Assembly: GCA_048625195.1 (NCBI GenBank)
Contig: JBMCRE010000001.1
Coordinates: 5,396 to 69,395, forward strand
DNA length: 64,000 bases
Source of the DNA: Nanobdellota archaeon
GTDB lineage: Archaea; Nanobdellota; Nanobdellia; Woesearchaeales; UBA583
Reading direction: 5' to 3'
The notes beneath the pieces are model-generated. The model was not told the origin of the DNA, did no database searches, and saw nothing but the letters and a program-made list of their open reading frames with translations. Position numbers and translations under genes: made by a program. This document shows, in pieces, positions 33,826 through 63,878 of this stretch (positions within the stretch are counted from its first letter, which is position 1; every line of letters starts with the position of its first letter).

Positions 33826-34437
33826 ATGTTTGAAATTGAATTATTAGATTTGATAAATAAAGCCAAGAAGACACAAGATAATTATGAACTTAACAATATT
33901 AAAGATTCTATATCTAATTTAATTTTTCAAAATAATGATGAGTTTAATAAATTTATTTCTAAGAATGATATTGATATGCAAACACAAGAATTTTTAAAAT
34001 CTTGTATAAAAAAAACATATAAAAATGATGAAAATAAATTTAGTGATTCAAAAAGTGATTTAGATAATATTAAAAATTATTATATGAGTTGGTTAGAGCA
34101 TTATAATAAAAATAATAATGTAGTTGATGATAATTGTAATATGGTAATTGATGAAATAATAAATTTTTATGTTTTGAATCGTTTTAATGTCATTTTAAGT
34201 ATCTTGAAAATCGTTGAAACACAAGATTATGAAGCTTTTAAATGGCATTTAAAAAATAAATTGAGATTATATTTTTCCAATCAAATAAGAAACTATATTA
34301 AATCTAGTAATTATCAAAATTTGAATTTTTTTAAAAAAATTAGGAAAAAAAATGCAATACATTATTTAATTTCTGCTATTAGTAAATATGAATTTGATAT
34401 TAAATTAATTAATGAGGTATTAGAAAATGAGTATTGA
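33826..34437 (+). CDS. Hypothetical protein (203 aa), divergent from the pilin-like pair
   Basis: No motif. Overlaps the next gene by 11 nt (operon). Confidence 0.35.
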   Translation: MFEIELLDLINKAKKTQDNYELNNIKDSISNLIFQNNDEFNKFISKNDIDMQTQEFLKSCIKKTYKNDENKFSDSKSDLDNIKNYYMSWLEHYNKNNNVVDDNCNMVIDEIINFYVLNRFNVILSILKIVETQDYEAFKWHLKNKLRLYFSNQIRNYIKSSNYQNLNFFKKIRKKNAIHYLISAISKYEFDIKLINEVLENEY

Positions 34438-36070
34438 AAATAAAATTAGTAGTATGGAAAAAAAATTAAATAAAATTGATGAACATTCTAGTACAAGACC
34501 TGTTAGTAAAAATGAACCTGTTGAGGCAACTAGTGGTTTTTTTAAAGTAATAGAATTAATTTTATATCCTTTTCTTTTGTTTTATATTTTTTTAAAAGTA
34601 GGATTTATAGGAGTAGACTGGATTGGTTCTTTAATTGCTAATAGTTTATCTTTTTTACAAGTTAAAAGTGTTTTTGGTATCTTTTCTGGAGATTTTTATT
34701 TAGGAATGATTGTTTTGGTTATATTATTTTTTATTTATTTCAATATTTTTGCTTTGTTTCCTTTAACATATTTTTTGACTATAAGAAGTGAACCTTTAGA
34801 TAAAATATATAAACAAATAAAAGTTGAGTTAATTATTGTTGTTTGTTTAATGATTCCTTTATTTCTTGCAATGTCTTATGGTTTAGTAATAGGTGATGAT
34901 GGAAGTATGAAAGAAGATACTAGAAAATTTAATATTAATCTTAATGAAAAAATTGAAAATTTAAAAAGTGGTCCTTTATGTTATTTATTTAATAGTCCTA
35001 TTGACTGTATGCAAAACCAAGAAACGACTACTGCTAAAAAAACAACAAGAGCAGAGTATAATGTTTATTTTAAAACTCCAGATTATAACTATGTTCAAAA
35101 TTTAGAGAAATTTAAACAAAGACCATATTATTTAAATTATGAGATTAAAGCAAAGGGAAGTCCTTTATATTTAGATAAAATTGAGTGTTATGCAAATAGG
35201 GTAGATGATAAAAACTTGCTGTATAGAGAATCTTTAGAAAATAGAAAAATTGAGACTAATCAACGTTTACCTGTAAGTGATATAAAATGTGATTTAAATG
35301 AATTAACTATTGATGGTAAAATTGATGAAGACTTTAAATTAATTACATTGTTATATTATGAAATTGAAAGTCAATATACTCAATCTTTTTATGTTTATAA
35401 TGTTGATAAATATATTGAAACTAATTATGGTAACAGTGATGGGTTAAATATAATTGATATTGAAGAAGAAATAAGGAAAAAACTTAATATTGAAAGTCCT
35501 ATTAAATCAAATAATTATTTTGATTTAAAAGTTTATACTTCTCCTAAATTACCTTTTTTTGTTGGAAAAGATTATGATGATAATAATATATATATGAGTT
35601 TTACTTTTACTAAGGATAGTGTTTATGATAAAGTATTAAATAATACTTTAATAAATTACTCTTTACCTAACTTTGTTGAAATGAATTGTGATGATACAAA
35701 TTGCAATGAGAACATTGAAAATCTTATTACATCATATAATGAGGAGTCTAATATAGAGTTAAATCTACTCTTGAAAGATAATATAATTGAACGAGAAGCA
35801 TTATCAGATAAAATTAATTTTAATATTAAAAGTAATTTAGTGAAAAAAAATGTTATTTCTTTAGTAATTAATAATCCTGATTATGTCGAAGAAGAAGAAA
35901 ACAATAAAAGTGATGTTAATCTCAACATTAATGATTTTGAAAATGAAAATATTTCTGATGAAAGCGATAATAACTTAGAAGTAGATGAGAAGGATGACAA
36001 TATTGTTACCAATCAAGAAAATAATAATGATTCACAATACTTTCAAGAAGATGATTTTAGAGGAAGGTGA
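34427..36070 (+). CDS. Membrane protein (4 TM) with large extracytoplasmic domain and acidic C-terminal tail
   Basis: Hydrophobic helices at residues ~40-150, then a Y/N/D-rich domain, then EEEENNKSD...DE-rich tail. Confidence 0.45.
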   Translation: MSIENKISSMEKKLNKIDEHSSTRPVSKNEPVEATSGFFKVIELILYPFLLFYIFLKVGFIGVDWIGSLIANSLSFLQVKSVFGIFSGDFYLGMIVLVILFFIYFNIFALFPLTYFLTIRSEPLDKIYKQIKVELIIVVCLMIPLFLAMSYGLVIGDDGSMKEDTRKFNINLNEKIENLKSGPLCYLFNSPIDCMQNQETTTAKKTTRAEYNVYFKTPDYNYVQNLEKFKQRPYYLNYEIKAKGSPLYLDKIECYANRVDDKNLLYRESLENRKIETNQRLPVSDIKCDLNELTIDGKIDEDFKLITLLYYEIESQYTQSFYVYNVDKYIETNYGNSDGLNIIDIEEEIRKKLNIESPIKSNNYFDLKVYTSPKLPFFVGKDYDDNNIYMSFTFTKDSVYDKVLNNTLINYSLPNFVEMNCDDTNCNENIENLITSYNEESNIELNLLLKDNIIEREALSDKINFNIKSNLVKKNVISLVINNPDYVEEEENNKSDVNLNINDFENENISDESDNNLEVDEKDDNIVTNQENNNDSQYFQEDDFRGR

Positions 36071-45048: not shown

Positions 45049-45801
45049 CTATGGTTGCCAAGGACCAGGTGCAATAACAGTTGTTGGTGTTTCCATTTGA
45101 TTAGTTACAGTACTTGCACCACCGTGTCCACTACTTGAACCACTAGAGATATTTTTCTCAATTATGGTTTTCTTACTTGATGAATCACTTTTACCTGCAC
45201 TGTATCCTAATATTGAAGTCCATAATGCAATAGATGTTGCATCTGATGCTTTTGCAGAAATAAGAGTATCTTCAATACCTTTAATTGCTGCATAGGTTCT
45301 AACTTGAGTTGCTAAAACAGGCATACTATTTTGATATTGTTCCACTAAACTTAAAGCTGCATTATATTTTGATTCCCAAGAGTGATTAGGACTAGTAATA
45401 ACGCTATTGTTTAAGGCTTTAACTGGTTGTCCCATCATTGCATTTGCTTGAACTAATTCAATAACTGTATCTAAACCTTGTTTATAACCTGCGATTTCTT
45501 GAGTTGGTATGTTTTCACTTTCTGGAACTTTATATCCATTTCTGATTAATCCTTCCCAGAAATCTTTAAAGTATTGCATTGCTTTGTTTTCTTTTTCTTT
45601 TGGAACTACTTGATAATCACTTTTTCTTAAATTGTATGCTTGGTTACCAACAATATTTTGTGTATGTTGTGTTTGTGATAACATAGAATCTCTTATTGCT
45701 TTATTTGATGTTTGTATTGTTGCACCTTTATTTCCACATCCTGTACCCATAGATAAAGCTGCAAGTAATAATCCTGTACCTATTAATGTTGATTTTTTCA
45801 T
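45049..45801 (-). CDS. Secreted lipoprotein-like protein, compositionally atypical (A/G/Q/S/T-rich)
   Basis: MKKSTLIGTGLLLAALSMGTGC, a lipobox-like signal with Cys. C-terminal S/G-rich tail. Visibly higher GC than its neighbours. Its ATG overlaps the stop of the upstream gene (ATGA). Confidence 0.5.
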   Translation of the reverse strand: MKKSTLIGTGLLLAALSMGTGCGNKGATIQTSNKAIRDSMLSQTQHTQNIVGNQAYNLRKSDYQVVPKEKENKAMQYFKDFWEGLIRNGYKVPESENIPTQEIAGYKQGLDTVIELVQANAMMGQPVKALNNSVITSPNHSWESKYNAALSLVEQYQNSMPVLATQVRTYAAIKGIEDTLISAKASDATSIALWTSILGYSAGKSDSSSKKTIIEKNISSGSSSGHGGASTVTNQMETPTTVIAPGPWQP

Positions 45802-47063
45802 TCTTTATTCCCTCCTAATTCTTGATTTATAATACTATAAACTTGATTTTCATATTCTGATAAATTTTGGTCTACTCTTTGATTTAATATTGCTTGACCT
45901 GTTTTAATACCATTATCGGTTAAATCATGTTGTGTTCCGTCATATCCTGTAATACTACCTTGTAAAATAGTATTAATTGGTAAAACTATTCTTGCTAATG
46001 CGTTGTCTGCTAAAAAGCCTCTTAATTGATCTCTTTCAATAAAAGCTGAAACATCTACTAAATAACCATTACCTAAGTTTTGATTTTCATAAAAATGTCT
46101 TGCAACAGATTCATGAATTGCATGATATGTTATTGCATCATGTAGTAAAGCTGGTGTTAGTTCTTCTCTTTGATCTTCATATAAAATTTCCTTTCCCAAT
46201 ATATTTTCTAAGTCTGAAAGTTTTATTGCAGAAATTCCTACATTCTCATGTGTCATTCCGTTTAAATTTGCATCATGTATTGCTTTCATATATGAATTAA
46301 CCAACTGAGTTTGTCCTTTACCATTTGGTCTATATAGTCCTGTAGTAATAAAATCTAAAAAAACTGATTCTGGTTTTACTTTATTTGCTTTATTAAATAG
46401 TAATTCATCTTGGTGTATAACTGTAGAGTCATATACTGAAAAATTGTTGTTGTCGTTTTTTTCTATTTTGGATATATGACCATTAAAATTTTGTGGAAAA
46501 TATAAAATATCTCCTTGAAATTGTCTAGTAGATGTTTTTGTAGATTGTTTTGGAATAGTTTGAGGTGTTTTTTTTGATTTTTCTGAAATTTCAGTTTCTA
46601 ATTTGGATTCTTTTGATGTTTCTTGAACTCCTGGTATTACTCCTATTTGATTTGTTTGGGGGTTATAAACTAATCTGTTATTACCTACTACTGGAAAATT
46701 ATTATGCCCTTCTCTAAAAGGATTTTTTGCTGTTGCAAAGTTATTAGATTCTTGTAGAGAGAGTTTTCCATCTTTATTTCCTCTAAATTTATCAATTAAA
46801 TATTCTATATCAATATTTGATTTATATGCGCTATGTGCATCAGAGCCTTTTTTAACAGTAAATGGAATAGTTATTTTATCTTGTATGTTTTCATGAAATA
46901 CTGGTTGTTTTTCAACTACTTGTTGAGTAGTTTTTTGGGGTTCTTGAAAAACTGATGCAATCTCTTTTCCACTTGCTCCTGACCATGCTTGCAATGCAGG
47001 AAAGATTGTTAATGCTCCTGCGAGTCCTAATGTTGCAATTTTTTTTTTTAATTTATTTACCAT
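45798..47063 (-). CDS. Secreted protein (421 aa) with signal peptide; same atypical composition
   Basis: MVNKLKKKIATLGLAGALTIFPALQAWSGAS, a Sec signal with an A-x-S-like cleavage site. No TM afterwards. Q/G/T/V-rich. Translationally coupled to the lipoprotein gene. Confidence 0.5.
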   Translation of the reverse strand: MVNKLKKKIATLGLAGALTIFPALQAWSGASGKEIASVFQEPQKTTQQVVEKQPVFHENIQDKITIPFTVKKGSDAHSAYKSNIDIEYLIDKFRGNKDGKLSLQESNNFATAKNPFREGHNNFPVVGNNRLVYNPQTNQIGVIPGVQETSKESKLETEISEKSKKTPQTIPKQSTKTSTRQFQGDILYFPQNFNGHISKIEKNDNNNFSVYDSTVIHQDELLFNKANKVKPESVFLDFITTGLYRPNGKGQTQLVNSYMKAIHDANLNGMTHENVGISAIKLSDLENILGKEILYEDQREELTPALLHDAITYHAIHESVARHFYENQNLGNGYLVDVSAFIERDQLRGFLADNALARIVLPINTILQGSITGYDGTQHDLTDNGIKTGQAILNQRVDQNLSEYENQVYSIINQELGGNKE

Positions 47064-49050: not shown

Positions 49051-50370
49051 ATGGGAGATAATTTAAATAAAATTAATTTAGAACATGTAACTAAAGTTGA
49101 AGGTCATGCAGAGGTAGATATTTCTATAAAAAATGGTAAAGTTGAAAAAGCTAATGTTCATAGTGTTGAAGGAGCTAGATATTTTGAAGGATTGATTAGA
49201 GGAAGAAAATATGATGAAGTAACTTTGATTACATCGAGAATTTGTGGAATTTGCTCTTGTGGGCATACTGTGTGCTCAATAAAAGCAATTGAAAATGCTT
49301 TTTCTATAAAAGTAAGTAGACAGACTGAATTATTAAGAGAGCTAATAACTATTGGAGAGAGAATTCGTTCTCATGCATCTCATATTTATTTTTTTTGTTT
49401 ACCTGATTATTTAGGATATTCTTCTGCAATTGATATGGCAAATAAGTATGCATCACAAATAAAAGATGCTATGGATATTGTGCGAGTTGGTAATAATCTT
49501 ATTAAATTAATTGGAGGAAGAGATATGCATCCATTTGTAAGTGTCCCAGGAGGATTTACAAAAATACATTCCCAAGAGGAATTTATTAATATAAAAGAAG
49601 AACTTAAAAATATAATACCTGCAATAAAAAGGACAATTACATTATTTGCAAGTTTAAATGTTCCAAAGTATAAAAAAAAAGATACTATATTTTTATCATT
49701 AGATAATCATAGGTCTTATCCTTTGCATACTGGGGATATAATTACTAATAGTAAAATTAAATTTAAACAAAAAGATTATAAAAATTTCATTAAAGAGACA
49801 TTTCATAAGGGTTCAACTGCTAAATTTGCAACAATTCAAGGCAAAGAATATACTACTGGTGCACTTGCAAGAATAAATAATTCTTATGGTAAATTATCTA
49901 AAGATACTAAAGATATGATTAAAAGATTAAATTTGAATTTTCCATCAACTAATTTATTTGATCAAAATTTAGCTCAAGCATTAGAAATTTTACATTGGAC
50001 TCAAAGAGGAATTGAAATATTAGAAAAAAATAATTTTAAAAGTGAAGATAAACAAGATATTAAATTGCAAAAAGATGTAAAAGAGTATCGAGGTATTGCT
50101 GCAATTGAAGTACCAAGAGGAATTTTATTTCATGATTATACTTTTGATGAAAAAGGTATTTTAATTAATGCTAATATTATTACTCCAACTGTTCAAAATT
50201 TACCTGATATGGAAGTTAATGTTCAAAATTATTTAAATCAAGTTTTAGAAAATGAACCTAATAAAAAAAAGAAAGAATTGGTTTTAGAAATTGAAAAAAT
50301 GATTAGAGCTTTTGATCCTTGTTTTAGTTGTTCAACTCATTTTTTAAAAGTTAATTGGAAAAATAAATAA
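49051..50370 (+). CDS. [NiFe]-hydrogenase large subunit, group 3-like (FrhA/MvhA-type termini); no small subunit adjacent
   Basis: N-terminal VEGHAEV...RICGICSCGH (L1 Ni-binding CxxC). C-terminal DPCFSCSTH (L2 DPCxxCxxH, which defines groups 1-3 rather than group 4). Confidence 0.8.
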   Translation: MGDNLNKINLEHVTKVEGHAEVDISIKNGKVEKANVHSVEGARYFEGLIRGRKYDEVTLITSRICGICSCGHTVCSIKAIENAFSIKVSRQTELLRELITIGERIRSHASHIYFFCLPDYLGYSSAIDMANKYASQIKDAMDIVRVGNNLIKLIGGRDMHPFVSVPGGFTKIHSQEEFINIKEELKNIIPAIKRTITLFASLNVPKYKKKDTIFLSLDNHRSYPLHTGDIITNSKIKFKQKDYKNFIKETFHKGSTAKFATIQGKEYTTGALARINNSYGKLSKDTKDMIKRLNLNFPSTNLFDQNLAQALEILHWTQRGIEILEKNNFKSEDKQDIKLQKDVKEYRGIAAIEVPRGILFHDYTFDEKGILINANIITPTVQNLPDMEVNVQNYLNQVLENEPNKKKKELVLEIEKMIRAFDPCFSCSTHFLKVNWKNK

Positions 50371-50429: not shown

Positions 50430-50837
50430 TTAATTTTCTATATTATCTAAAGTTTTACTCCAAAGTTTATGAATGTTACAATATGCTCTTACTTGCAATA
50501 TTTGAGAATTTATTGGAATTATAAATTCTGCTTTTGGTTTTTGATTTGGATTTAATTGTTTTTTTAATGTAATGTCATTATCTGTTATAACTTCTATCCA
50601 TTCAATATAATGTTTTTCTTCCATTGGATGCATAGTTTCACCTATTTGAATATAAATTATATCATCTTGGATTTTAATAAATGGGACGTGTTTTTCTTTT
50701 GATGTATTTATTGTATTTTCTTCTTGAATTTGCATTGGCTGATTACAACATACTAATTCTCCTTCTCCTGTATTTAATATTTTTACAATGTTTCCACAAA
50801 CTTCACATTTATATATTTCATTTAATTTAGTTGCCAT
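50430..50837 (-). CDS. dfx: Desulfoferrodoxin (2Fe superoxide reductase); the track ORF extends to 50885 but the real start is most likely MATKLNEIYK..
   Basis: EIYKCEVCGNIV...GELVCCNQPM (desulforedoxin FeS4 centre). KEKHVP..I......HPM...H.IEWI and C..H.LW (SOR centre). Near-collinear with Desulfovibrio Dfx. Confidence 0.85.
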   Translation of the reverse strand: MATKLNEIYKCEVCGNIVKILNTGEGELVCCNQPMQIQEENTINTSKEKHVPFIKIQDDIIYIQIGETMHPMEEKHYIEWIEVITDNDITLKKQLNPNQKPKAEFIIPINSQILQVRAYCNIHKLWSKTLDNIEN

Positions 50838-50927
50838 ATTATTATTTAAGATATTCATTATTATAAATTTAATTGTTTTACTCAATTTAATTTAGGTTTT
50901 TTGTGATTTTTTTTTTATTTTTTTCAG

Positions 50928-54777: not shown

Positions 54778-56871
54778 ATGAGAATTAAAGAGAAAGAATA
54801 TTTTGATAAGAGTAAAAAATTGTTAGAAATAGATAAAAAAAATATACAAAAACCTGATGCAGAAAGTATTATTAATGATTTAAAAAATGTAATAAGATAT
54901 CATGACTGGAGATATTATGTAAAAAATGATCCTATTATCTCCGATAAAGAATATGATGAACTTTTTGATTTGTTAAAAAATATAGAATCGAAGTGGCATG
55001 ATTTAAGAGATAAGAATTCACCAACTCAAAGAATATCTGAAAAAATTACTGATGAATTTAAAAGTGTTGAACATTTAAAACCTATGTTATCATTAGATAA
55101 TTCGTATGATAAAAATGATATCAAGGATTTTTATAAAAGAGTTAAAAGAAATCTTTCAAAAAAGGATATTAAATATTCTTTGGAACCTAAACTAGATGGT
55201 AGTGGAATCTCTATAATTTATGAAAATGATAATCTTATAAGAGGAGCAACTCGTGGAAATGGAATAAGAGGTGATGATGTTACAGGAAATATAAAGACAA
55301 TAAAAACTATCCCACTAATTGCTAAATTTGACAACGAAGGAATTAAAAAAATAGAAATAAGGGGTGAAGTTTTACTTAGTAAAAAAAGGTTTAATGAAAT
55401 TAATAAGCAACGTAGAAAGAATTCGAAAAATCTTTTTGCAAATCCAAGGAATGCAGCTGCAGGAACAATAAGATTACAAGATCCTAAAGAAGTTTCTAAG
55501 AGAGAACTTGAAATAATTGTATATCAAATAACTACTGCTCTTGATAAAAATGAAAAAGAATTACTTGGAAAAGATATTAAAAGTCAACAAGAAAGCATTA
55601 AACTTCTTAAAAGATTAGGTTTTAAAACTTTGCTTGACGAGACAGAAATCGGAAGAGATATAGATGATATATTAAAATATTCGAAAGAATGGAACAATAA
55701 AAGAGACAATTATCCTTATGAAGTTGATGGTCTTGTAATAAAGATTGATAATATACAATTTCATGAGAAATTAGGTTTTACTTCTAGACATCCAAAATGG
55801 GCTATTGCACATAAGTTTGAAGCAAAGCAAGCTACTACAGAAATAACAGAAGTGATATTTAATGTAGGAAGAAGTGGTATTGTAACTCCTGTTGCAAAAC
55901 TTGATCCTGTTAATATTGGAGGTGTTAATATTTCATCTGTGTCTTTGATTAATGAAGATTTTATAAATGAAAAAGATATACGAGAGAAAGATCAAATACT
56001 TATTGAGAGAGCAGGAGATGTTATACCTTATGTTGTAAAATCTATAAAAGATGCAAGAAAAAAAGATTCAGAAAGGATAAAGTTTCCACAAAAATGTCCT
56101 TCATGTAATCATAAAATAAAAAGAATAGATGATGAAGTTTATTGGAGATGTTTCAATTCTCAATGTCCAGCACAAATAAAAGAGAAAATTAGACACTTTT
56201 CATCTAAAGAATGTATGGATATTAAAGGTCTTAGTGAAAAGACTATAAATAAATTGTATGAGACTGGTGATTTGAGGAATATTGCTGACATATATAGATT
56301 TGATTATGAAAAACTAAAAAGTTATCCAAGATTTGCTAAAAAATCTATTAATAACATTAAGAAAGCTATTGAAGATTCAAAAAGTAGAGATTTATATTGT
56401 CTAATAAATGGATTAGGTATACCACTTATTGGAAAGAATCATTCAAGAATACTTTCATTAAATGTTGATAGCATCGATGATATTATTAAACTAAAAATTA
56501 ATGATATGATAAAATTCGAGGATTTTGGAATTATAACTACTAAAAGTGTTTACAATTTTTTCAAAGAAGAAAGTAACTTAAAAATTATATCAGAATTGAA
56601 AAAATTAGGAGTTAATACTAAAAATAAAAAAAGTACCAAATCTGACAAATTAAAAGATAAAACTTTTGTGTTTACAGGTTCACTTGATGATTATACCAGA
56701 GAAGAAGCACAAAATATTGTTGAAGAACTAGGGGGAAGAGCAACATCATCTATTAGCTCAAATACCGATTTTCTTATTGTTGGAAAAAATGTAGGTTCTA
56801 AATATAATGAAGCTAAAAAGTATGATGTAAAAATTATTAATGAAAAAGAGTTCAAAAAACTTATTAGTTAA
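54778..56871 (+). CDS. ligA: NAD+-dependent DNA ligase (LigA): adenylation, OB, Zn-finger, HhH, BRCT
   Basis: EPKLDGSGISIIY (KxDG adenylation site). CPSCNHKIKRIDDEVYWRCFNSQC (Zn finger). HhH repeats. C-terminal BRCT (KTFVFTGSLDDYTREEAQNIVEELGGRATSSISSNTDFLIVG). Confidence 0.9.
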   Translation: MRIKEKEYFDKSKKLLEIDKKNIQKPDAESIINDLKNVIRYHDWRYYVKNDPIISDKEYDELFDLLKNIESKWHDLRDKNSPTQRISEKITDEFKSVEHLKPMLSLDNSYDKNDIKDFYKRVKRNLSKKDIKYSLEPKLDGSGISIIYENDNLIRGATRGNGIRGDDVTGNIKTIKTIPLIAKFDNEGIKKIEIRGEVLLSKKRFNEINKQRRKNSKNLFANPRNAAAGTIRLQDPKEVSKRELEIIVYQITTALDKNEKELLGKDIKSQQESIKLLKRLGFKTLLDETEIGRDIDDILKYSKEWNNKRDNYPYEVDGLVIKIDNIQFHEKLGFTSRHPKWAIAHKFEAKQATTEITEVIFNVGRSGIVTPVAKLDPVNIGGVNISSVSLINEDFINEKDIREKDQILIERAGDVIPYVVKSIKDARKKDSERIKFPQKCPSCNHKIKRIDDEVYWRCFNSQCPAQIKEKIRHFSSKECMDIKGLSEKTINKLYETGDLRNIADIYRFDYEKLKSYPRFAKKSINNIKKAIEDSKSRDLYCLINGLGIPLIGKNHSRILSLNVDSIDDIIKLKINDMIKFEDFGIITTKSVYNFFKEESNLKIISELKKLGVNTKNKKSTKSDKLKDKTFVFTGSLDDYTREEAQNIVEELGGRATSSISSNTDFLIVGKNVGSKYNEAKKYDVKIINEKEFKKLIS

Positions 56872-56880
56872 TAAAGATAT

Positions 56881-58602
56881 TTATTTTTTGTTTTTAAAAT
56901 GTTTTATGAAATCTTTATAGGGAAGCGTGTTTATGACATCGTTTTTTGTTAGCCAGCCTCTTCTTGCTTGAGAAATTCCGTATTTTATAAAATTGAGATT
57001 AGAGATATTATGAGTATCAGTATTTATAACAAATTTTGCACCACATTCCTTTGCAAATTTTATATTTATATCGTTGAGGTCTAACCTTTTAGGGTTTGAG
57101 TTTATTTCTAAACATTTGTTATTTTTTGCGATTTCTTTGTATATTTTTTTTGAGTCAAATTCTATTTCTGCTCTTTTTCCAATTATTCTACAAAGAGGAT
57201 GACCTAATATGTCTAAATTCTCATTATTAATTGCATTTAGTATACGATTTGTCATATCTTTTTTTGATAGTTTAAATTTTTTATGAATTGAACATATCTT
57301 AATATCAAGTTTCTGTAAAGTATCATCATCATAATCAAGACTTCCATCTTCGAGAATATCTATCTCGGAACTTTTCAATATTTTCATTTGTGAATTTTTT
57401 TGCAATTTATCTATCTCTTTTATTTCCTTTTTTAGTTCATTTTTGCTCAATCCTGATGCTATAATTGCAGATTTAGAATGATCACTAATTGCAATATATT
57501 CATATCCTTTTTCTTGTGTAGCATCAACAATTTCTTTTATTGTGTTATTACCATCTGTCAATTTACTATGGATATGAAGGTCTCCTTTTATATCTTTTAG
57601 TTTAATTAGTTTTGGAATCTGATTCTTCTTTGCAGTTTCTATTTCACCTTTGTTTTCTCTTAATTCAGGAGGTATCCATTGCATTTTTAACTTATTATAA
57701 ATATCCTCCTCTTTTTCACCTGCAATTTTTTTGTTTTTTTTGTTGTATAGACCATATTCTGATAATTTATATCCTTTTTTCTGAGCGATTTTACGCAATT
57801 CTATATTGTGCTCTTTACTTCCAGTGAAATACTGCATTGCTGCACCAAAACTTTTCTTATCTATTAATCTTAAATCTATTTGAATATTGTTTTTTAAAAT
57901 TATTGTGCTTTTAGATTTTCCTTTTGATATTATATCTGATATATCATCCATATTTGTAAAAACATCTATCACTTTCTGGGGTTCTTTTGAGAATGCGAGT
58001 ATGTCAATGTCTCCGATTGTCTCTTTTTGTCTTCTAAGAGAACCTGCATAAATTATCTTATCAATTGGGGATTTAGCTTTCAATTTTTCAATGATTTCTT
58101 CTGCAATGGGCATCGCTTCTGATATAAGCATTCGCTCGGATACTTTTTCATATCTTTGAATAGATTTCTTTATATTATCCTGAGTCTTCTGACCAAATCT
58201 TTCGAGTTCTTTTATCTTATCTTGTTCTATTGCTTCTTTTAAGTCTTTAATGTTTGATATTTTTAATTCTTCTTGAAGCTCTTTTATCTTTTTAGGTCCT
58301 AATCCTTCAATTTTCATGAGTAAAGATTGTGATAAAGGAATTTGCTTGAAAAGTTCTTCAAATTCTTTTACTTTTCCATTTAAAATATATTCTTCAAGAT
58401 GTTTTGCTATTGATTCACCTACTCCAGGGAGTTTCTTTAATGCATTTATTCCTTTTTTCTCATAAAGTTTAGTAATATTATGGTTTAGATTTTCTATGCT
58501 ATTTGCAGCTGTTCTATACGCAATAGGTTTCCATTCAACCCCTTTTATTTCGTATGCGTTAGCAACATTGTTTAATATCTCTATTAATTCTTTGTTTATC
58601 AT
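56881..58602 (-). CDS. polX: DNA polymerase X family with C-terminal PHP 3'-5' exonuclease/phosphoesterase domain (PolX)
   Basis: N-terminal HhH (GVGESIAKHL, LGPKKIKEL). Pol-beta nucleotidyltransferase GSLRRQKETIGDIDIL. PHP motifs GDLHIHSKLTDG and AISDHS. Confidence 0.85.
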   Translation of the reverse strand: MINKELIEILNNVANAYEIKGVEWKPIAYRTAANSIENLNHNITKLYEKKGINALKKLPGVGESIAKHLEEYILNGKVKEFEELFKQIPLSQSLLMKIEGLGPKKIKELQEELKISNIKDLKEAIEQDKIKELERFGQKTQDNIKKSIQRYEKVSERMLISEAMPIAEEIIEKLKAKSPIDKIIYAGSLRRQKETIGDIDILAFSKEPQKVIDVFTNMDDISDIISKGKSKSTIILKNNIQIDLRLIDKKSFGAAMQYFTGSKEHNIELRKIAQKKGYKLSEYGLYNKKNKKIAGEKEEDIYNKLKMQWIPPELRENKGEIETAKKNQIPKLIKLKDIKGDLHIHSKLTDGNNTIKEIVDATQEKGYEYIAISDHSKSAIIASGLSKNELKKEIKEIDKLQKNSQMKILKSSEIDILEDGSLDYDDDTLQKLDIKICSIHKKFKLSKKDMTNRILNAINNENLDILGHPLCRIIGKRAEIEFDSKKIYKEIAKNNKCLEINSNPKRLDLNDINIKFAKECGAKFVINTDTHNISNLNFIKYGISQARRGWLTKNDVINTLPYKDFIKHFKNKK

Positions 58603-58677: not shown

Positions 58678-60219
58678 TTATTTTTTAGATTCAATAATAT
58701 AATTTTCTTCAAGTTCTTTGCTAAAATTTAAATTACCTGTTCCTGAAGGTAGTATGTATGCATAAATATTATCAATATCTATTCGTAAACCATTATCTAA
58801 TCTAAACATTAAAGCAGGTCCAATTAAACTATTAATATATTTAGAAAAACGATTAACAATAACTGAATCATATTTAATTCCTGCATATAAATTAAGTTCT
58901 TCAATTGCTTTTTTAACAGGCATTTTTTCATACCCTGAATAATAATTACCATAAACCATATGTTCAAAAGATTCACAAATTCTAATTATCCTTGATAAAC
59001 TTGGAATCTGTTTTTTAGAAATTCTAGGATATCCTAAACCATTCCAATCGCAGTGATGATGCAAAACAATATTTGAGCATCCAGCAAGCCATGGAGATTT
59101 TGATATTATATCATTAGCTGTGTTTGGATGTTGTTGAATTTTGTACAAATCTTTTGTACTAAGATTAGTTTTTTGAAGCATATCTTTTGTAATTTGTAAA
59201 CTTGCATAACCAATATCCTTATACATTATTGATTTAAAAAGTAAATCTTTATCTGTTGGTGCTAAATCTATTTTATGGGCAAAATCCATTGCAATTTTTA
59301 TCAACCTTTTATTATGATGCCACATTTGAGGTACTTTCTTGTATATAGATTTTTTATAAAATTGAAGAAATTTATTTAATATGTTTGAATGATTTATTGA
59401 TTTATTTTTATAAAGTTTAAATTCTGCTCTCATGATAACAGAATCAGAATTCTCAAAAGATGTTTCTTGCATATCATATCCCAAAGATACACTCAGAGGA
59501 TAATTTATTTTTGAAGATGTTTTTTTTATAATTTTTGAAATTTCTTGACATTTATCTTCAAGAGTTTTTTTTGTGGGTTTTCTTACAAGAGCTATGAACT
59601 CATCAGCTTTTTCTCCTCTTCGACCTACATAATCGCTTTTCCTAAAAGAGTTTTTCATTATTTCTGCAAAAAGTTTTATTAGATAATCACCAAATGAATG
59701 ACTAAAAACATCGTTAGCAAGTTTCAAATAATCAATATCTGCAAATATAATACCAAACTTTTCGTTTCTAAGATTTTCTAAATGAAAAATTTGCTCATTA
59801 ATATATTTCATATTATATAATCCTGTAAAAGAATCGTTTAAACCTTTGTATTTTGATATATCATTTACAATAATTAAAACACCAGTTGGCTCATTTTTTT
59901 CATCTTTGATAAGTTTTCCTGATACTTCCTGAACTTTAGGATTTTTAATATCAAAATTATTGATATGCTCAATTGTAATTGGAACATCTGATCTTTTAAC
60001 ATCTTTTATAACACAATCACAAACTTCATCAAATGGTTTAAAGCAACTTAATTCTATACCTTCACGTCTTTCATTAGTATAGATAATTTCACCTGTTTCA
60101 TGATTAAGAAAATAAAAAATATTTGGAAAATTATCTAATAAATTTCTTAATTGATTAAGTTCATCAGATGTATTTTTAAGTTTCTGTTCAAGATTATTAA
60201 ATATGTTATTTTTATCCAA
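58678..60219 (-). CDS. PAS - degenerate GGDEF - HD-GYP domain protein (c-di-GMP-type signalling architecture)
   Basis: N-terminal PAS-like fold. GGDEF-domain core FTGLYNMKYINEQ...FGIIFADIDYLKLANDVFSHSFGDYLIKL...RRGEKADEF, where the GG(D/E)EF site is replaced by GEKADEF. HD-GYP domain ..YKDIGY.. (HD becomes KD) and HHHCDWNGLGYP (HHExxDGxGYP). Confidence 0.7.
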   Translation of the reverse strand: MDKNNIFNNLEQKLKNTSDELNQLRNLLDNFPNIFYFLNHETGEIIYTNERREGIELSCFKPFDEVCDCVIKDVKRSDVPITIEHINNFDIKNPKVQEVSGKLIKDEKNEPTGVLIIVNDISKYKGLNDSFTGLYNMKYINEQIFHLENLRNEKFGIIFADIDYLKLANDVFSHSFGDYLIKLFAEIMKNSFRKSDYVGRRGEKADEFIALVRKPTKKTLEDKCQEISKIIKKTSSKINYPLSVSLGYDMQETSFENSDSVIMRAEFKLYKNKSINHSNILNKFLQFYKKSIYKKVPQMWHHNKRLIKIAMDFAHKIDLAPTDKDLLFKSIMYKDIGYASLQITKDMLQKTNLSTKDLYKIQQHPNTANDIISKSPWLAGCSNIVLHHHCDWNGLGYPRISKKQIPSLSRIIRICESFEHMVYGNYYSGYEKMPVKKAIEELNLYAGIKYDSVIVNRFSKYINSLIGPALMFRLDNGLRIDIDNIYAYILPSGTGNLNFSKELEENYIIESKK

Positions 60220-60313
60220 TTTTAACTTCTAAGTGTTTTTTATTATTCATAAGGTTTTTTGTTTTAAAAATAATAACTTTGAAAATTCAATAATTTTATA
60301 AAGTATTTTTAAA

Positions 60314-60495
60314 AAGCTTAAATTTTAAGATTTAATAGATTTCGTATTATAAAATTAATATTTTTTTGAAACTTTGAATGTATAGAGAACTTTGAAAAAC
60401 TCAATAGTTTTTAATAAATATCTTTGGAAAGCTTAAATTTAAAGGTTTCATAGATTCGAATTTATTAAATCAGTACTTTTTCAAAGTTCTCTATA
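60314..60495. repeat. Composite intergenic repeat: ~35-nt direct repeats (60314-60348 and 60429-60463), each followed by one arm of a 20-nt near-perfect inverted repeat (60381-60400 tatagagaactttgaaaaac and 60476-60495 ctttttcaaagttctctata)
   Basis: Read directly from the sequence. 19/20 complementarity between the arms. 75-nt spacer. Lies in a ~600-nt divergent intergenic region. Confidence 0.55.
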
Positions 60496-60895
60496 TTAAA
60501 ATAGGTTCAAAATTAATAAAAATCTTTGTATTTTAAATATTAAAGTTCATTATAATAATATTGACTTTTTTAATGAAGATAAAGTTTTGTTTCTAAATTA
60601 AAGATAATAATACAATTAACTAGAAAAAAATTTAATAAATTAATTAAATAATGATGACATTAATGACTTATTTAGAAAATTAGAAGTAATTCATAATCAA
60701 GATGAAAATTATAAAGAAACATTAGAACAAGTATCTTGGAATAAATTATTAGATTTTAATGAAGAATATAATACAAAAAGCTGGTATTCTTTTAAATAAA
60801 ATTATTATTTTATATTTTTGTTTATTTTATTTCATTTTATTTTATTTTTTAAAATTAATAGAAATCTTTTTAAATTCAAACTACTAATTTTATAT

Positions 60896-61665: not shown

Positions 61666-61902
61666 TTAATAATATTTAAATAATAATATACAAATAATTG
61701 ATATAAATATAAATAAAATTCCTTGAATATAGAATCTGTCATAAAATAAAAACATTGAAGTTAAAATAAAAATAAGAGATGCTGCTAAACAAAGATATTT
61801 AAACAATTTATATAAGTAATTAAAAATTATTTTTTCAAAAGGTGTTGATGATAAATCTTTATTCTCATCTTTAATTAATTCAAGCATTGTTTTTTTTGTC
61901 AT
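61666..61902 (-). CDS. Small membrane protein (2 TM), hypothetical
   Basis: Two C-terminal hydrophobic helices. Nothing else. Confidence 0.25.
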   Translation of the reverse strand: MTKKTMLELIKDENKDLSSTPFEKIIFNYLYKLFKYLCLAASLIFILTSMFLFYDRFYIQGILFIFISIICILLFKYY

Positions 61903-62006: not shown

Positions 62007-63878
62007 CTATTTTTTCTTATTGTTCTTTTTATCTTCTTTATCTTTTTCTTTTGCTTGAGTATCTACTACTTCTTCTTCTTTATTCTTATTGTCTGATTTT
62101 GTTTCTTTTGTTTGATTTGCTTGGTCTTCTTGAGCTTGTTTTTGATACATTTCTACAAAAATTTCTTGAGCTTTTTTATTTATCTCATCCATTTTTGTCT
62201 TAATTTTTTCTACATCTCTTTTTTCTGCTTTAAGCATTTCTTCAAGCTCTTTAATTAAATCCATAACTGGACTTACTTTTTTTTGATCAACTTTATCTTT
62301 ATTTTCTTCTAAAGTTTTTTTAGTTTGATATACTATTTGTTCTGCTTGATTTACTGTTTCAATTTCTTCTTTTCTTTTTTTATCTTCATCAGCATTTTTC
62401 TCAGCTTCTTCTTGCATTCTTTTAATTTCTTCTTCAGATAAATTAGATGTTGCAACTATTTTAATTGACTGTTCTTTTCCTGTTCCTTTGTCTTTTGCAG
62501 ATACATTTACAATTCCATTTGCATCTATATCAAAAGTAACTTCTATTTGTGGCACCCCTCTTGGAGCAGGAGGAATTCCTGTTAAATCGAATCTTCCTAT
62601 TTCTTTGTTATCATTAAACATTGCTCTTTCTCCTTGACCAATTCTAATTGTTACAGCATTTTGATTATCTTGAGCAGTTGAAAATACTTGTGATTTTTTA
62701 CTTGGAATTGTTGTATTTTTATCAATTAATTTTGTAAATACTCCTCCTAGAGTTTCAATACCTAAAGATAGAGGTGTTACATCTAATAATAAAACGTCTT
62801 TAACATCTCCTGCTAAAATACCTCCTTGAATTGATGCTCCCATAGCAACTGCTTCATCTGGGTTTACTGATTTATCAGGGTCTTTGTTTGTAATGCTTTT
62901 AACCATATCTTGAACTGCTGGTATTCTTGTAGAACCACCTACTAATATGATTTTATTAATTTCTGATTCTTTTAATTTAGAATCTTTTATTGCTTGATTA
63001 GTTGTTTTTCTTAATTTTTCTAATATATCATCAATTAATTCATTAAATTTCGCTCGTGTGATTTTCATATCTAAGTGTTTAGGACCATTAGCATCTGCTG
63101 TAATAAATGGTTCTGAAATTTGAGTTTCAAGTCTTGAAGATAATTCTATTTTTGCTTTTTCTGCTGCATTTTTTACTCTTTGAGCAGATTGTGCATCATT
63201 TCTTAGATCTATACCATGTTCTGATTTAAATTCTTTTGCAATATAATCAATTAATAGTTTATCAATATTATCTCCACCTAAATGATTATCTCCTGATGTA
63301 GATTTTACTTCAAAAACACCATCATCTAATTCTAAAATTGAAACATCAAATGTTCCTCCACCAAAATCAAAAACAAGTACATTTTGTGTTTCTTCTTTTG
63401 CAATTCCATAGGCAAGTGATGCAGCAGTTGGTTCGTTAATAATTCTTTCAACTTCAAATCCTGCAATTTTACCTGCATCTTTAGTTGCTTGTCTTTGAGC
63501 ATCGCTAAAATATGCTGGAACTGTAATTACTGCTTTTTTAACTTCTTGTCCTAAATAACTTTCTGCATCTTTTTTTAATTTTTGTAAAATAATTGCTGAA
63601 ATCTCTTGAGGTGTATATTCTTTATTATGAATTTTTACCTTATAATCTTCACCCATATGAGTTTTAATTGATGCAACTGTTTCATTTGGTTTTACAATTG
63701 CTTGTTTTTTTGCAGGTTCTCCTACAATTCTTTCTCCTGACGCATTAATATGAACTACTGAAGGTGTAGTTCTTGTACCTTCACTATTTGGAATTACAGT
63801 TGAAGTACCGTTTTCCATAATAGACATACATGAATTTGTAGTTCCTAAATCTATTCCTAAAATTTTTTCTTTTCCCAT
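62007..63878 (-). CDS. dnaK: Chaperone DnaK (Hsp70)
   Basis: [38 protein letters not shown]. Full nucleotide-binding + substrate-binding + lid domains. K/E-rich C-terminal tail. Confidence 0.95.

What the first reader, a model, noticed from the sequence alone, without database searches (positions are those of the whole stretch)
58678..60219. PAS-GGDEF-HD-GYP protein in an archaeal context, with degenerate catalytic motifs in both c-di-GMP domains
The domain order and motifs are clear: a diguanylate-cyclase fold with ..RRGEKADEF where GG(D/E)EF should be, and an HD-GYP phosphodiesterase fold with HHHCDWNGLGYP. However the HD dyad reads KD (YKDIGY), so both catalytic sites look compromised. c-di-GMP signalling proteins are overwhelmingly bacterial. 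Finding a composite, probably catalytically inactive version among native-composition archaeal genes suggests either a c-di-GMP receptor or scaffold, or a repurposed sensor. The composition is native-like, so it is not a recent transfer.
Basis: partly seen in the sequence, partly recalled or inferred. Interest (0 to 1): 0.62.

Follow-up and report, generated by a model that had tools for sequence, protein, structure and literature searches.

The report
Doubly degenerate archaeal GGDEF–HD-GYP protein
A tiny-genome (DPANN/Nanoarchaeota) archaeon really does carry a bacterial-type cyclic-di-GMP signalling protein, long resident and under selection, but with both of its enzyme centres remodelled, so it probably acts as a nucleotide-binding switch, not as a normal enzyme.

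Summary
Window 58678-60219 (-) encodes a 513-aa protein with a divergent PAS-like N-terminus, a GGDEF domain (Pfam 75 bits) and an HD-GYP domain (HD_5 71 bits).

The contig is archaeal throughout (RpoD, TFS, S8e, L15e, S27e, Rpp29, ABCE1). The gene's GC, GC3 and codon usage match its neighbours.

Among 162 collinear GGDEF-HD-GYP homologues the target is the most divergent; every homologue with a source name or inspected context is bacterial.
- GGDEF hairpin reads G-EK-A-DEF: the insertion occurs in 0/162, and the second Gly is G in 161/162.
- HDxGK reads KDIGY.
- HHE reads HHC, where Glu is in 162/162.
- PmGH E185, R314 and K317 equivalents are Q, N and S.

GTP/Mg-binding residues, the RxxD I-site, four His and one Asp metal ligands and GYP are kept.

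The only close relative is a truncated 75%-identical orthologue from another sample. It keeps every HD-GYP oddity, with dN/dS 0.26 and synonymous codon differences at K334 and C390. The gene is therefore maintained, and is neither contamination nor decay.

Most likely it is an anciently transferred bacterial enzyme, domesticated as a catalytically impaired, PAS-controlled nucleotide-binding switch. Activity is untested. Archaeal MAG hits to these domains were already reported, so this is a new variant of a known kind.

The parts
58678..60219 (-). Whole gene: 513-aa PAS-like / GGDEF / HD-GYP protein, TTG start, TAA stop. Identical to NCBI MFW6285596.1.
60130..60219 (-). N-terminal helical segment (residues 1-30). 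Predicted helices 3-14 and 18-30; may be a dimerising coiled coil (inferred).
   Evidence: secondary structure only; pLDDT below 50
59851..60165 (-). Divergent, shortened PAS-like sensor domain (residues 19-123)
   Evidence: Family-specific profile 25.1 bits against a shuffle maximum of 12.2. Aligns to the PAS of P0071. No Pfam PAS hit. Model pLDDT below 50, with a beta-beta-alpha-beta-beta order.
59380..59841 (-). GGDEF domain (residues 127-280). D161, K166, N169, D170, D178, D206, E207, F208 and K273 are retained.
59632..59643 (-). RxxD inhibitory/c-di-GMP-binding I-site (R193-K-S-D196), five residues upstream of the first Gly
   Evidence: R in 156/162 homologues, D in 153/162
59596..59622 (-). 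Remodelled active-site hairpin RRG-EK-ADEF (residues 200-208). It carries a two-residue insertion, and the second Gly is Ala.
   Evidence: insertion in 0/162; G in 161/162
59347..59379 (-). End of the long helical stalk joining GGDEF to HD-GYP (residues 281-291; the model's helix spans 258-295)
58825..59346 (-). HD-GYP domain (residues 292-465)
59314..59334 (-). VPQMWHH (residues 296-302). PmGH D183 is V296, E185 is Q298, and H189 is kept as H302.
   Evidence: PMC4159591
59206..59223 (-). YKDIGY (residues 333-338), in place of xHDIGK. The H-site ligand His is Lys (K334), Asp is kept (D335), and the essential Lys is Tyr (Y338).
   Evidence: The orthologue has the same residues, with K encoded AAG versus AAA.
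59026..59061 (-). HHHCDWNGLGYP (residues 387-398). The HH ligands and GYP are kept. The invariant Glu of HHE is Cys (C390).
   Evidence: C encoded TGC versus TGT in the orthologue
58936..58977 (-). CESFEHMVYGNYYS (residues 415-428). PmGH D305 is E416, D308 is E419, and the guanine contacts R314 and K317 are N425 and S428.
   Evidence: PMC4159591
58681..58821 (-). Clade-specific 47-residue C-terminal tail (residues 467-513), function unknown
   Evidence: Absent from the bacterial homologues. Conserved in the orthologue, dN/dS 0.32. No Pfam hit. pLDDT below 50.

Best explanation
This is a bacterial-type sensor-GGDEF-HD-GYP protein of the family NCBI names 'bifunctional diguanylate cyclase/phosphohydrolase'. 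An ancestor of a small Nanoarchaeota (DPANN) lineage acquired it long ago by horizontal transfer, and it has been kept under purifying selection while both catalytic centres were remodelled.

Shown:
- The gene is resident on an archaeal contig.
- Its composition is native.
- It has the bacterial family architecture and is the extreme outlier of that family.
- The odd HD-GYP residues are conserved in a second sample.

Inferred mechanism: the protein works as a dimeric, PAS-controlled nucleotide-binding switch and not as a c-di-GMP turnover enzyme.
- GGDEF half: it keeps the Mg/GTP-binding residues (D161, N169, D178, D206, E207, K273) and the RxxD I-site (R193/D196), so it can probably still bind GTP and/or a cyclic dinucleotide. 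The lengthened hairpin, with Gly replaced by Ala (G-EK-A-DEF), should prevent or greatly slow condensation of two GTP.
- HD-GYP half: it keeps D335, H364, H388/H389, H302, E416 and GYP. The side of the metal centre nearest the HD motif (the H-site of PmGH) is rebuilt: H221 is K334, E185 is Q298, K225 is Y338 and D183 is V296. In PmGH that side forms the nucleophilic hydroxide. The two guanine-contacting residues (R314 to N, K317 to S) are also lost. Canonical c-di-GMP hydrolysis is therefore unlikely.

Output would then be conformational or protein-protein, as in degenerate receptors such as PelD, LapD, DvhD or inactive RpfG-family proteins.
For: Domains and folds.

Archaeal contig. RpoD, uS4, uS13, uS9 and TFS are archaeal equivalogs. 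S8e, L15e and ABCE1. Elp3 and an archaellin-like protein. S27e, Rpp29 and a histone fold. TFS lies 1.1 kb from the gene.

Native composition.

Bacterial family. 1885 collinear hits at E<=1e-30, all at or below 37% identity. Named neighbours are bacterial. Two unnamed compact homologues sit in bacterial contexts.

Outlier status. Mean identity 0.309 against 0.462 +/- 0.029. The target violates 8 of 49 columns conserved at 95% or more, against a family mean of 0.88.

Residue counts over 162 homologues:
- EK insertion 0/162
- second Gly G in 161/162
- HD His H in 153/162
- HDxGK Lys K in 143/162
- HHE Glu E in 162/162
- R314 equivalent R in 131/162
- K317 equivalent K or R in 124/162
- 135/162 canonical at all nine core positions

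The PmGH paper reports that H221A, K225A and D183A abolish activity, that the M-H hydroxide is the likely nucleophile, and that R314 and K317 bind guanine (PMC4159591).

Selection. Orthologue P0015/L002 is 75% identical and keeps Q298, K334, Y338, C390, E416, N425 and S428. dN/dS is 0.26, and the codons for K334 and C390 differ synonymously.

Precedents. The degenerate HD-GYP of DvhD is a metal-free c-di-GMP receptor (PMC13090378). PelD is a degenerate GGDEF that binds c-di-GMP at its I-site (PMC4933438). In such tandems one domain is usually inactive (PMC6205966).
Against: - No activity or binding was measured.
- The GGDEF domain keeps all known substrate- and metal-binding side chains. Natural variants of the first Gly (A or S) occur in the family (3 each of 162). 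A cyclase with an unusual hairpin cannot be excluded.
- Six of the eight PmGH metal ligands are kept or conservatively replaced. Lys at the His position could conceivably substitute for a metal ion.
- Loss of the guanine contacts in HD-GYP argues against that half being a c-di-GMP receptor.
- No c-di-GMP source, PilZ or EAL gene is present in the window. A receptor would therefore have no known ligand supply.
- The rest of the genome could not be examined.
- Conservation of the GGDEF hairpin could not be tested, because the only orthologue is truncated.
Confidence: 0.5

Rival explanations
1. It is still an enzyme. It could be a non-canonical diguanylate (or other dinucleotide) cyclase, a phosphodiesterase with an altered mono- or binuclear metal centre, or both. 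On its own it would then form a minimal one-protein second-messenger circuit in this archaeon.
For: - All GTP/Mg-binding residues of GGDEF and the product-inhibition I-site are kept. An I-site is most useful to an active cyclase.
- D178 is Asp, as in G-specific cyclases. The contrast with Hypr enzymes rests on my own knowledge of Hallberg 2016.
- H302, D335, H364, H388, H389, E416 and GYP are kept.
- Purifying selection is strong, dN/dS 0.23 in the HD-GYP core.
- In PmGH, E185A and D305A retain some activity (PMC4159591).
Against: - The hairpin insertion is unique (0/162) and the second Gly is otherwise G in 161/162.
- The PmGH equivalents of the H-to-K and K-to-Y positions each abolish activity when mutated to Ala.
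- The invariant HHE Glu is Cys, and the guanine contacts are lost.
- c-di-GMP has never been detected in an archaeon (PMC8646023, PMC10249747).
Confidence: 0.3
2. Neofunctionalised: it no longer has anything to do with c-di-GMP. The two folds would have been recruited for another chemistry or ligand, for example NTP hydrolysis by the GGDEF-like domain or another phosphohydrolase or redox-sensing role for the HD domain. The Cys and Lys would then be new functional residues.
For: - The target violates eight family-invariant columns.
- New residues (K334, C390, Y338) are conserved in the orthologue with synonymous codon changes.
- There is a clade-specific conserved C-terminal tail.
- The guanine contacts in HD-GYP are lost.
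- Neighbouring genes include redox enzymes (desulfoferrodoxin, NiFe-hydrogenase-like).
- The GGDEF-like ATPase domain of GdpP/YybT is a precedent, cited in the reference list of PMC8646023.
Against: The guanine-specifying N169 and D178 and the I-site RxxD are retained, which points to continued guanine-nucleotide binding. No positive evidence supports any alternative ligand.
Confidence: 0.13
3. A decaying relic of a transferred gene: a non-functional pseudo-enzyme on its way out.
For: Both signature motifs are degenerate. The clade is extremely rare, with two sequences among about 15 billion proteins.
Against: - The 513-codon ORF is intact in a genome of about 22% GC, where stop codons arise easily.
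- dN/dS is 0.26 against an orthologue with dS about 0.5.
- 41 of 49 family-conserved columns are still kept.
- Both folds are confidently modelled.
Confidence: 0.04
4. Bacterial contamination or a chimeric assembly: the gene is not really archaeal.
For: - Galperin and colleagues regarded nearly all archaeal MAG hits to GGDEF/HD-GYP as possible contamination (PMC5847659; bioRxiv 10.1101/2021.11.05.467447).
- The independent Logan contig L001 breaks 204 bp upstream of the gene.
- The immediate neighbours PolX, LigA and DnaK are bacterial-type.
Against: - Archaeal markers lie on both sides within the window: TFS 1.1 kb upstream, and Rpp29, S8e, L15e, ABCE1 and the S13-S4-S11-RpoD-L13-S9-S27e cluster downstream.
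- GC, GC3 and codon usage cannot be told apart from the neighbours.
- No bacterial homologue exceeds 37% identity in 1.84 billion representatives. Contamination would give near-identical bacterial hits.
- A second, diverged copy exists in another sample, with the same extreme AT-rich coding.
Confidence: 0.03

Closest known systems
Bacterial sensor-GGDEF-HD-GYP tandem proteins (NCBI 'bifunctional diguanylate cyclase/phosphohydrolase', e.g. WP_459168706.1 of Natronospora cellulosivora; compact PAS-GGDEF-HD-GYP proteins such as P0071 and P0020)
   Same: - Collinear architecture: a PAS or other sensor, GGDEF, a helical stalk, then HD-GYP.
- Both Pfam domains are present, at 30-37% identity over residues about 120-465.
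- The family-typical RxxD, the D-x-LTGLYN start, HH, GYP and most metal ligands are shared.
   Different: - 135 of 162 family members are canonical at all nine core positions. Members with a degenerate HD dyad still have a canonical GGDEF.
- The target alone has the EK insertion plus Gly-to-Ala, and HHE-to-HHC.
- It also combines KD, loss of the HDxGK Lys and loss of both guanine contacts.
- It adds a 47-residue tail.
- It is archaeal.
Methanocella arvoryzae RCIX2274 (CAJ37382), REC-PAS-PocR-GGDEF-HD-GYP
   Same: It was the only GGDEF/HD-GYP protein accepted as archaeal, because it comes from a complete genome. It also carries the GGDEF-HD-GYP tandem behind PAS-type sensors (bioRxiv 10.1101/2021.11.05.467447; PMC5847659).
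   Different: Its sensor modules differ (REC, PocR) and it comes from a different phylum (a methanogen).
DvhD of Desulfovibrio vulgaris (PDB 9rbz) and other degenerate HD-GYP proteins (Shewanella HnoD, inactive RpfG-family members)
   Same: PAS, helical stalk and HD-GYP with a non-canonical HD dyad. The fold matches at TM about 0.7. DvhD is shown to be a metal-free c-di-GMP receptor that does not hydrolyse c-di-GMP (PMC13090378).
   Different: DvhD has lost HD (to SQ) and HH (to MN) entirely. The target keeps D, HH, two further His and GYP, so it probably still binds at least one metal. DvhD is a membrane protein without GGDEF.
PelD, and the GTP-sensing degenerate GGDEF of Caulobacter PdeA (the latter from my own knowledge: Christen et al. 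2005)
   Same: A degenerate GGDEF signature with retained nucleotide-binding elements. PelD binds c-di-GMP at a conserved RxxD I-site (PMC4933438).
   Different: PelD is GAF-GGDEF and membrane-anchored. PdeA pairs its GGDEF with EAL. In the target the partner domain is a degenerate HD-GYP, and binding is untested.
PmGH (PDB 4mcw), the trinuclear-iron HD-GYP phosphodiesterase
   Same: The same fold. H189, D222, H250, H276, H277 and GYP are conserved, and D305 is conservatively Glu.
   Different: H221 is K, E185 is Q, K225 is Y, D183 is V, R314 is N and K317 is S. In PmGH, H221A, K225A and D183A abolish activity (PMC4159591).

Membership tests
GGDEF domain (PF00990 / TIGR00254) | Profile HMM score above the curated cut-off | tested here: met
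   75 bits against 23.8; 86 bits against 37.4
GGDEF domain (PF00990 / TIGR00254) | GGDEF/nucleotidyl-cyclase-like fold | tested here: met
   Model pLDDT 71-94 over residues 141-280. Foldseek TM about 0.75 and rmsd about 3 A to 4urg, 4zvh and 5euh.
Active diguanylate cyclase | Intact GG(D/E)EF hairpin | tested here: not met
   G202-E-K-A205-D-E-F. The two-residue insertion is seen in 0/162 homologues. The second Gly is Ala, against G in 161/162.
Active diguanylate cyclase | Metal- and GTP-binding residues (PleD D327, N335, D344, E370/E371, K442 equivalents) | tested here: met
   D161, N169, D178, D206/E207 and K273 are all present. The PleD numbering is from my own knowledge.
Active diguanylate cyclase | Synthesis of c-di-GMP from GTP | not testable with these tools
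   Needs an enzyme assay
HD-GYP domain (PF13487 HD_5; Galperin HD-GYP) | Profile HMM score above the cut-off, and the fold | tested here: met
   HD_5 71 bits against 27.2. PF01966 HD scores only 16.3 bits, below its cut-off of 22. Foldseek matches 4mcw and 9rbz at TM about 0.7.
HD-GYP domain (PF13487 HD_5; Galperin HD-GYP) | GYP motif and HH pair | tested here: met
   H388, H389, G396, Y397 and P398
Active HD-GYP phosphodiesterase | HD dyad (PmGH H221/D222) | tested here: not met
   K334-D335. His is found in 153/162 homologues. H221A abolishes PmGH activity (PMC4159591).
Active HD-GYP phosphodiesterase | All seven core metal ligands, plus E185 for the trinuclear subgroup | tested here: not met
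   Five are identical (H302, D335, H364, H388, H389). D305 is Glu (E416). H221 is Lys. E185 is Gln.
Active HD-GYP phosphodiesterase | Essential Lys of HDxGK (PmGH K225) and the invariant Glu of HHE | tested here: not met
   Y338, where K is found in 143/162. C390, where E is found in 162/162.
Active HD-GYP phosphodiesterase | Hydrolysis of c-di-GMP | not testable with these tools
   Needs an enzyme assay with Fe or Mn
PAS domain | Match to a curated PAS profile | tested here: not met
   No Pfam PAS family hits at E<=10 on residues 1-136
PAS domain | Homology to PAS domains at the same position in family members, and a PAS-like order of secondary structure | tested here: met
   Family profile 25.1 bits against shuffles of 1.3 +/- 1.9, with 0/500 reaching it. 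The aligned region of P0071 is PAS_8/PAS_9/PAS by Pfam. The strand and helix order fits, but pLDDT is below 50.
Degenerate c-di-GMP receptor (PelD / LapD / DvhD type) | Catalytic motif degenerate but a nucleotide-binding site retained (RxxD I-site, or the HD-GYP pocket) | tested here: inconclusive
   The I-site R193xxD196 is retained. The HD-GYP guanine contacts, R314 and K317 equivalents, are lost.
Degenerate c-di-GMP receptor (PelD / LapD / DvhD type) | Measured c-di-GMP binding and a downstream partner | not testable with these tools
   No binding data. Synteny is not conserved between the two orthologue contigs.
Genuine archaeal gene (not contamination) | Archaea-specific markers on the same contig on both sides, native composition, no near-identical bacterial sequence | tested here: met
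   markers; composition; best bacterial hit 37% identity
c-di-GMP signalling network in this organism | Other GGDEF, EAL, HD-GYP or PilZ genes in the genome | tested here: inconclusive
   None among the 51 ORFs of 120 aa or more, or among 11 of the 12 non-overlapping 60-119 aa ORFs in the 64-kb window. The twelfth, 61666-61902 (78 aa), was not scanned. tblastn finds no paralogue. The rest of the genome is not available.

The most novel reading that the evidence does not exclude
A DPANN archaeon uses guanine-based cyclic-dinucleotide signalling. Either this single protein makes and senses c-di-GMP (or a related dinucleotide) through a non-canonical hairpin and a Lys/Cys-modified metal centre, or it lets the symbiont sense c-di-GMP or GTP produced by neighbouring or host cells. 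Either way it would be the first functional c-di-GMP-type module shown in Archaea.
Probability: 0.12. Interest if true: 0.8.

Novelty: new variant of a known kind. Interest (0 to 1): 0.45.

Why it matters
Whether Archaea have any c-di-GMP machinery is still an open question.
- Reviews state that the messenger has never been detected in an archaeon (PMC10249747).
- Domain censuses treated nearly all archaeal MAG hits to GGDEF/HD-GYP as possible contamination. They asked for confirmation on archaeal contigs (PMC5847659; bioRxiv 10.1101/2021.11.05.467447; PMC10086821).

This locus gives such a confirmation for one DPANN lineage.
- The gene sits between archaeal information-processing genes.
- It has native codon usage.
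- It is far from every bacterial homologue.
- It is conserved in a second sample.

It also shows what happens to a bifunctional bacterial signalling enzyme after long residence in a reduced archaeal genome. Both centres are remodelled in a selected, non-random way: the changes cluster on one side of the HD-GYP metal centre and in the GGDEF hairpin. Nucleotide-binding elements are kept.

That makes it a concrete, testable candidate for a repurposed nucleotide sensor. It is also a caution against the automatic 'diguanylate cyclase' annotation it currently carries.

It remains one gene in a two-member clade, with no biochemical data.

Tried and rejected
- Pfam PAS models on the isolated N-terminus gave no hit. 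phmmer of the N-terminus against the homologues' upstream regions also gave no hit. Only a family profile worked.
- I looked for more orthologues, to see whether the GGDEF hairpin is conserved. I ran two scans of GTDB species genomes, two scans of JGI metagenomes and two word-indexed protein searches. The metagenome scans gave only distant canonical HD-GYPs such as L007. Apart from P0015 nothing was found, and P0015 is cut at the contig edge.
- Operon-based inference was rejected. The target is 75 bp upstream of PolX, but the orthologue contig has a different downstream gene.
- The bacterial promoter and terminator scans were uninformative. Counts equalled the shuffle expectation, and the models are not archaeal.
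- The upstream repeats are weak in DNA that is 80% AT, so I did not interpret them.
- I considered contamination, chimera and pseudogene, and rejected them. See the rival explanations.
- I considered Hypr-type cGAMP synthase specificity. The specificity position is Asp (D178), as in G-specific enzymes. The contrast with Hypr enzymes rests on my own knowledge, so this is a lead and not a test.
- The model's N-terminus and C-terminal tail have pLDDT below 50, so I attempted no fold search on them.
- Two Python calls failed for technical reasons and were repeated.
Full report
**1. What is there**

Window 58678-60219 (minus strand) is an intact 513-codon ORF with a TTG start. NCBI holds the identical 513-aa product as MFW6285596.1, 'MAG: diguanylate cyclase [Nanoarchaeota archaeon]', on a 92.5-kb contig. 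The same gene was assembled independently from run SRR21542054 (L001).

Domain evidence:
- Pfam finds GGDEF at residues 129-275 (75 bits, cut-off 23.8) and HD_5 at 292-453 (71 bits, cut-off 27.2).
- NCBIfam TIGR00254 gives 86 bits.
- An AlphaFold model built on 11 sequences has pLDDT of about 70-94 over both domains. Confidence is lower in the GYP loop and the 421-430 loop, and below 50 for residues 1-133 and 467-513.
- Foldseek against the PDB returns GGDEF domains (TM about 0.75, rmsd about 3 A) and the HD-GYP structures PmGH 4mcw and DvhD 9rbz.

**2. The N-terminus**

No Pfam PAS model matches it, even at E<=10. Several lines still point to a PAS-like domain:
- Homologues whose match extends into this region carry a Pfam-recognised PAS there, for example P0071 at residues 28-108.
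- I built a profile from the 120 residues preceding GGDEF in 160 homologues. Its consensus is plainly PAS-like.
- That profile matches target residues 19-123 at 25.1 bits. Five hundred shuffles of the target segment gave 1.3 +/- 1.9, with a maximum of 12.2.
- The predicted order of strands and helices fits a shortened PAS, but the model is not confident there.

I accept 'PAS-like, divergent and shortened'.

**3. Is the context archaeal and the gene native?**

Yes to both. The window encodes the following archaeal markers:
- archaeal-type RpoD, uS4, uS13, uS9 and transcription factor S
- S11 and L13
- S8e, L15e and ABCE1/RLI
- Elp3 and an archaellin-like protein
- S27e, RNase P Rpp29 and a histone-fold protein

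TFS lies 1.1 kb upstream of the gene and the other markers lie downstream, so archaeal markers flank it.

The window is 19-29% GC. The gene's GC (0.249, z=0.13), GC3 (0.117, z=-0.29) and codon usage (third closest to the rest among 16 large genes) are typical of the window.

Several neighbours are bacterial-type: PolX, NAD-dependent LigA, DnaK and a short AlaRS. That is common in DPANN genomes and suggests a transfer-rich neighbourhood.

**4. Relatives**

An exhaustive phmmer search of 1.84 billion representatives gives 1885 proteins at E<=1e-30. In the 150 best hits listed, all but the truncated orthologue P0015 match GGDEF and HD-GYP collinearly, at no more than 37% identity. The hits that carry names are bacterial: Actinomycetota, Halanaerobiales, Spirochaetales, Eubacteriales and Atribacterota. 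NCBI's name for the family is 'bifunctional diguanylate cyclase/phosphohydrolase'. Two unnamed compact PAS-GGDEF-HD-GYP homologues sit in bacterial contexts, one beside dockerin cellulases and one beside a MacB-MFP efflux system.

The single close relative is P0015, 75% identical over residues 296-512. It lies on a 1.4-kb contig from another run (SRR29699997). The reading frame is open to the contig edge and still matches the target, so P0015 is a truncated orthologue.

No other member turned up in GTDB species genomes, in JGI metagenomes or in a second indexed search.

Within an alignment of 162 homologues the target is the most divergent sequence. Its mean identity is 0.309 against 0.462 +/- 0.029 for the others. 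It violates 8 of the 49 columns that are conserved at 95% or more, against a family mean of 0.88. This is an old transfer followed by accelerated change.

**5. The catalytic sites, residue by residue**

*GGDEF.* Retained:
- D161, K166, N169, D170 and D178
- R200, G202, D206, E207 and F208
- K273
- the I-site R193-x-x-D196

Changed: a two-residue insertion (E203, K204) in the signature hairpin, present in 0 of 162 homologues. The second Gly is Ala, where 161 of 162 have Gly. The model shows a six-residue loop there, with a dip in confidence.

*HD-GYP.* I mapped it on PmGH through the alignment. The PmGH ligand list is confirmed in PMC4159591.

| PmGH residue | Target residue | Count in the 162 homologues |
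|---|---|---|
| H189 | H302, kept | H in 154 |
| H221 | K334 | H in 153 |
| D222 | D335, kept | D in 161 |
| H250 | H364, kept | H in 162 |
| H276 / H277 | H388 / H389, kept | H in 153 / 161 |
| D305 | E416 | D in 140, E in 13 |
| E185 | Q298 | E in 113 |
| K225, of HDxGK | Y338 | K in 143 |
| D183 | V296 | not conserved in this family |
| Glu of HHE | C390 | E in 162 |
| GYP | kept | G 161, Y 161, P 162 |
| R314, guanine contact | N425 | R in 131 |
| K317, guanine contact | S428 | K or R in 124 |

According to the PmGH paper:
- H221 lies at the 'H' metal site.
- E185 bridges the M and H metals.
- K225 hydrogen-bonds E185, D222 and D183.
- The hydroxide bridging M-H is the likely nucleophile.
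- H221A, K225A and D183A abolish activity.

The target's changes therefore cluster on one side of the metal centre. They are not scattered.

About 5% of the bacterial family also has a non-His residue at the HD position (Y, R, Q, A, and one K). Those proteins keep a canonical GGDEF. In total, 135 of 162 are canonical at all nine core positions. Only the archaeal protein departs in both domains.

**6. Is it maintained?**

Against the orthologue, 231 aligned codons give dN 0.133, dS 0.515 and dN/dS 0.26. The ratio is 0.23 in the HD-GYP core and 0.32 in the tail. Q298, K334, Y338, C390, E416, N425 and S428 are identical in both proteins. K334 (AAG versus AAA) and C390 (TGC versus TGT) are encoded by different synonymous codons. 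The unusual residues are therefore selected, which excludes decay. The Nei-Gojobori estimate is crude in DNA this AT-rich, but the ratio is far below 1.

**7. Other components**

I scanned the 51 ORFs of 120 aa or more and 11 of the 12 non-overlapping ORFs of 60-119 aa. None carries PilZ, EAL, GGDEF or HD-GYP. The unscanned one is a 78-aa ORF at 61666-61902. tblastn finds no paralogue. The rest of the genome is out of reach.

**8. Most likely mechanism**

I think this is a domesticated descendant of a bacterial bifunctional enzyme. It now acts as a PAS-controlled, probably dimeric, nucleotide-binding switch.
- The GGDEF half can probably still bind GTP and/or a cyclic dinucleotide at the I-site. 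It is unlikely to condense two GTP, because the hairpin that carries the catalytic acidic pair is lengthened and has lost a Gly.
- The HD-GYP half probably binds fewer metals. It lacks the site that generates the nucleophile, so canonical hydrolysis is unlikely.

Precedents exist for each half:
- PelD, a degenerate GGDEF that binds c-di-GMP at the I-site (PMC4933438)
- DvhD, a degenerate HD-GYP that is a metal-free c-di-GMP receptor (PMC13090378)
- inactive RpfG-family proteins (bioRxiv 10.1101/2021.11.05.467447)
- the general rule that one domain of such tandems is inactive (PMC6205966)

All steps beyond residue mapping are inference. I put this explanation at about 0.5.

The main rival, at 0.3, is that one or both activities survive in non-canonical form. 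Nearly all binding residues are kept, and selection is strong. A complete change of ligand or chemistry comes next, at about 0.13. Relic status (0.04) and contamination (0.03) are poorly supported.

**9. Comparison with what is known**

The architecture is a common bacterial one. In Archaea, the only accepted GGDEF/HD-GYP protein was Methanocella arvoryzae CAJ37382, which is also a GGDEF-HD-GYP tandem. Seventy further archaeal HD-GYP ORFs from MAGs were listed as possible contamination. Braun et al. reported more than 300 archaeal BLAST hits to GGDEF, many of them in DPANN and Asgard MAGs. c-di-GMP has not been detected in any archaeon.

The existence of such hits is therefore known, and this very protein is in GenBank with an automatic name. 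What is new:
- the demonstration that this copy is truly archaeal and long resident
- the conserved remodelling of both sites in one protein
- the clade-specific tail

I rate it a new variant of a known kind, with interest 0.45.

Noticed in passing
window 60220-60817: The 598-bp AT-rich intergenic region upstream of the gene holds an imperfect 73-nt direct repeat (60294-60366 and 60409-60481, 75% identical). It also holds a 36-nt inverted repeat (60364-60399 and 60477-60512, 81% complementary). The independent Logan contig L001 ends inside this region, at about 60423. These could be regulatory elements, or chance matches in DNA that is 80% AT.
   Followed up: partly
window 58681-58821: The protein has a 47-residue C-terminal tail (GPALMFRLD...IYAYILPSGTGNLNF...ELEE). 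All 162 bacterial homologues lack it. The orthologue P0015 conserves it (dN/dS 0.32). It has no Pfam hit, and the model's pLDDT there is below 50. Function unknown.
   Followed up: partly
window 54778-58602, 62007-63878 and 1502-3373: Bacterial-type genes cluster around the target in an otherwise archaeal window. They are PolX with a PHP domain, NAD-dependent DNA ligase LigA, DnaK and a short alanine-tRNA ligase that matches NCBIfam NF002436 far better than the archaeal AlaRS model (667 against 208 bits). PolX has the highest GC3 in the window (0.197). The neighbourhood looks rich in transfers.
   Followed up: partly
window 49051-50370, 50430-50885 and 19279-19941: A NiFe-hydrogenase large-subunit-like ORF (439 aa), a desulfoferrodoxin and a nitroreductase. 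This is redox equipment in a very reduced, roughly 22% GC DPANN-type genome.
   Followed up: no
window 8925-11210, 11784-13502, 15990-19250, 31268-33265, 34427-36070 and 45798-47063: Six large ORFs (421-1086 aa) have no Pfam match at E<=0.001. One lies next to an archaellin/pilin-like ORF (8206-8700). They may be lineage-specific surface or host-interaction proteins.
   Followed up: no
L002 752-1054: On the orthologue's contig the downstream gene is a small ORF with a hydrophobic N-terminus, not PolX as in the window. Synteny around the gene is not conserved, so no operon inference is possible.
   Followed up: yes
window 13620-14441: An RNase H / RVT_3-type domain occupies the first 128 residues of a 273-aa ORF. 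The C-terminal 145 residues or so are unassigned.
   Followed up: no
P0141, P0038, P0040, P0073, P0081, P0109, P0121, P0159, P0070 (homologues): About 5% of bacterial GGDEF-HD-GYP tandem proteins have a non-His residue in the HD dyad (Y, R, Q, A, K) while keeping a canonical GGDEF. This subclass probably comprises cyclases with a regulatory, inactive HD-GYP.
   Followed up: partly
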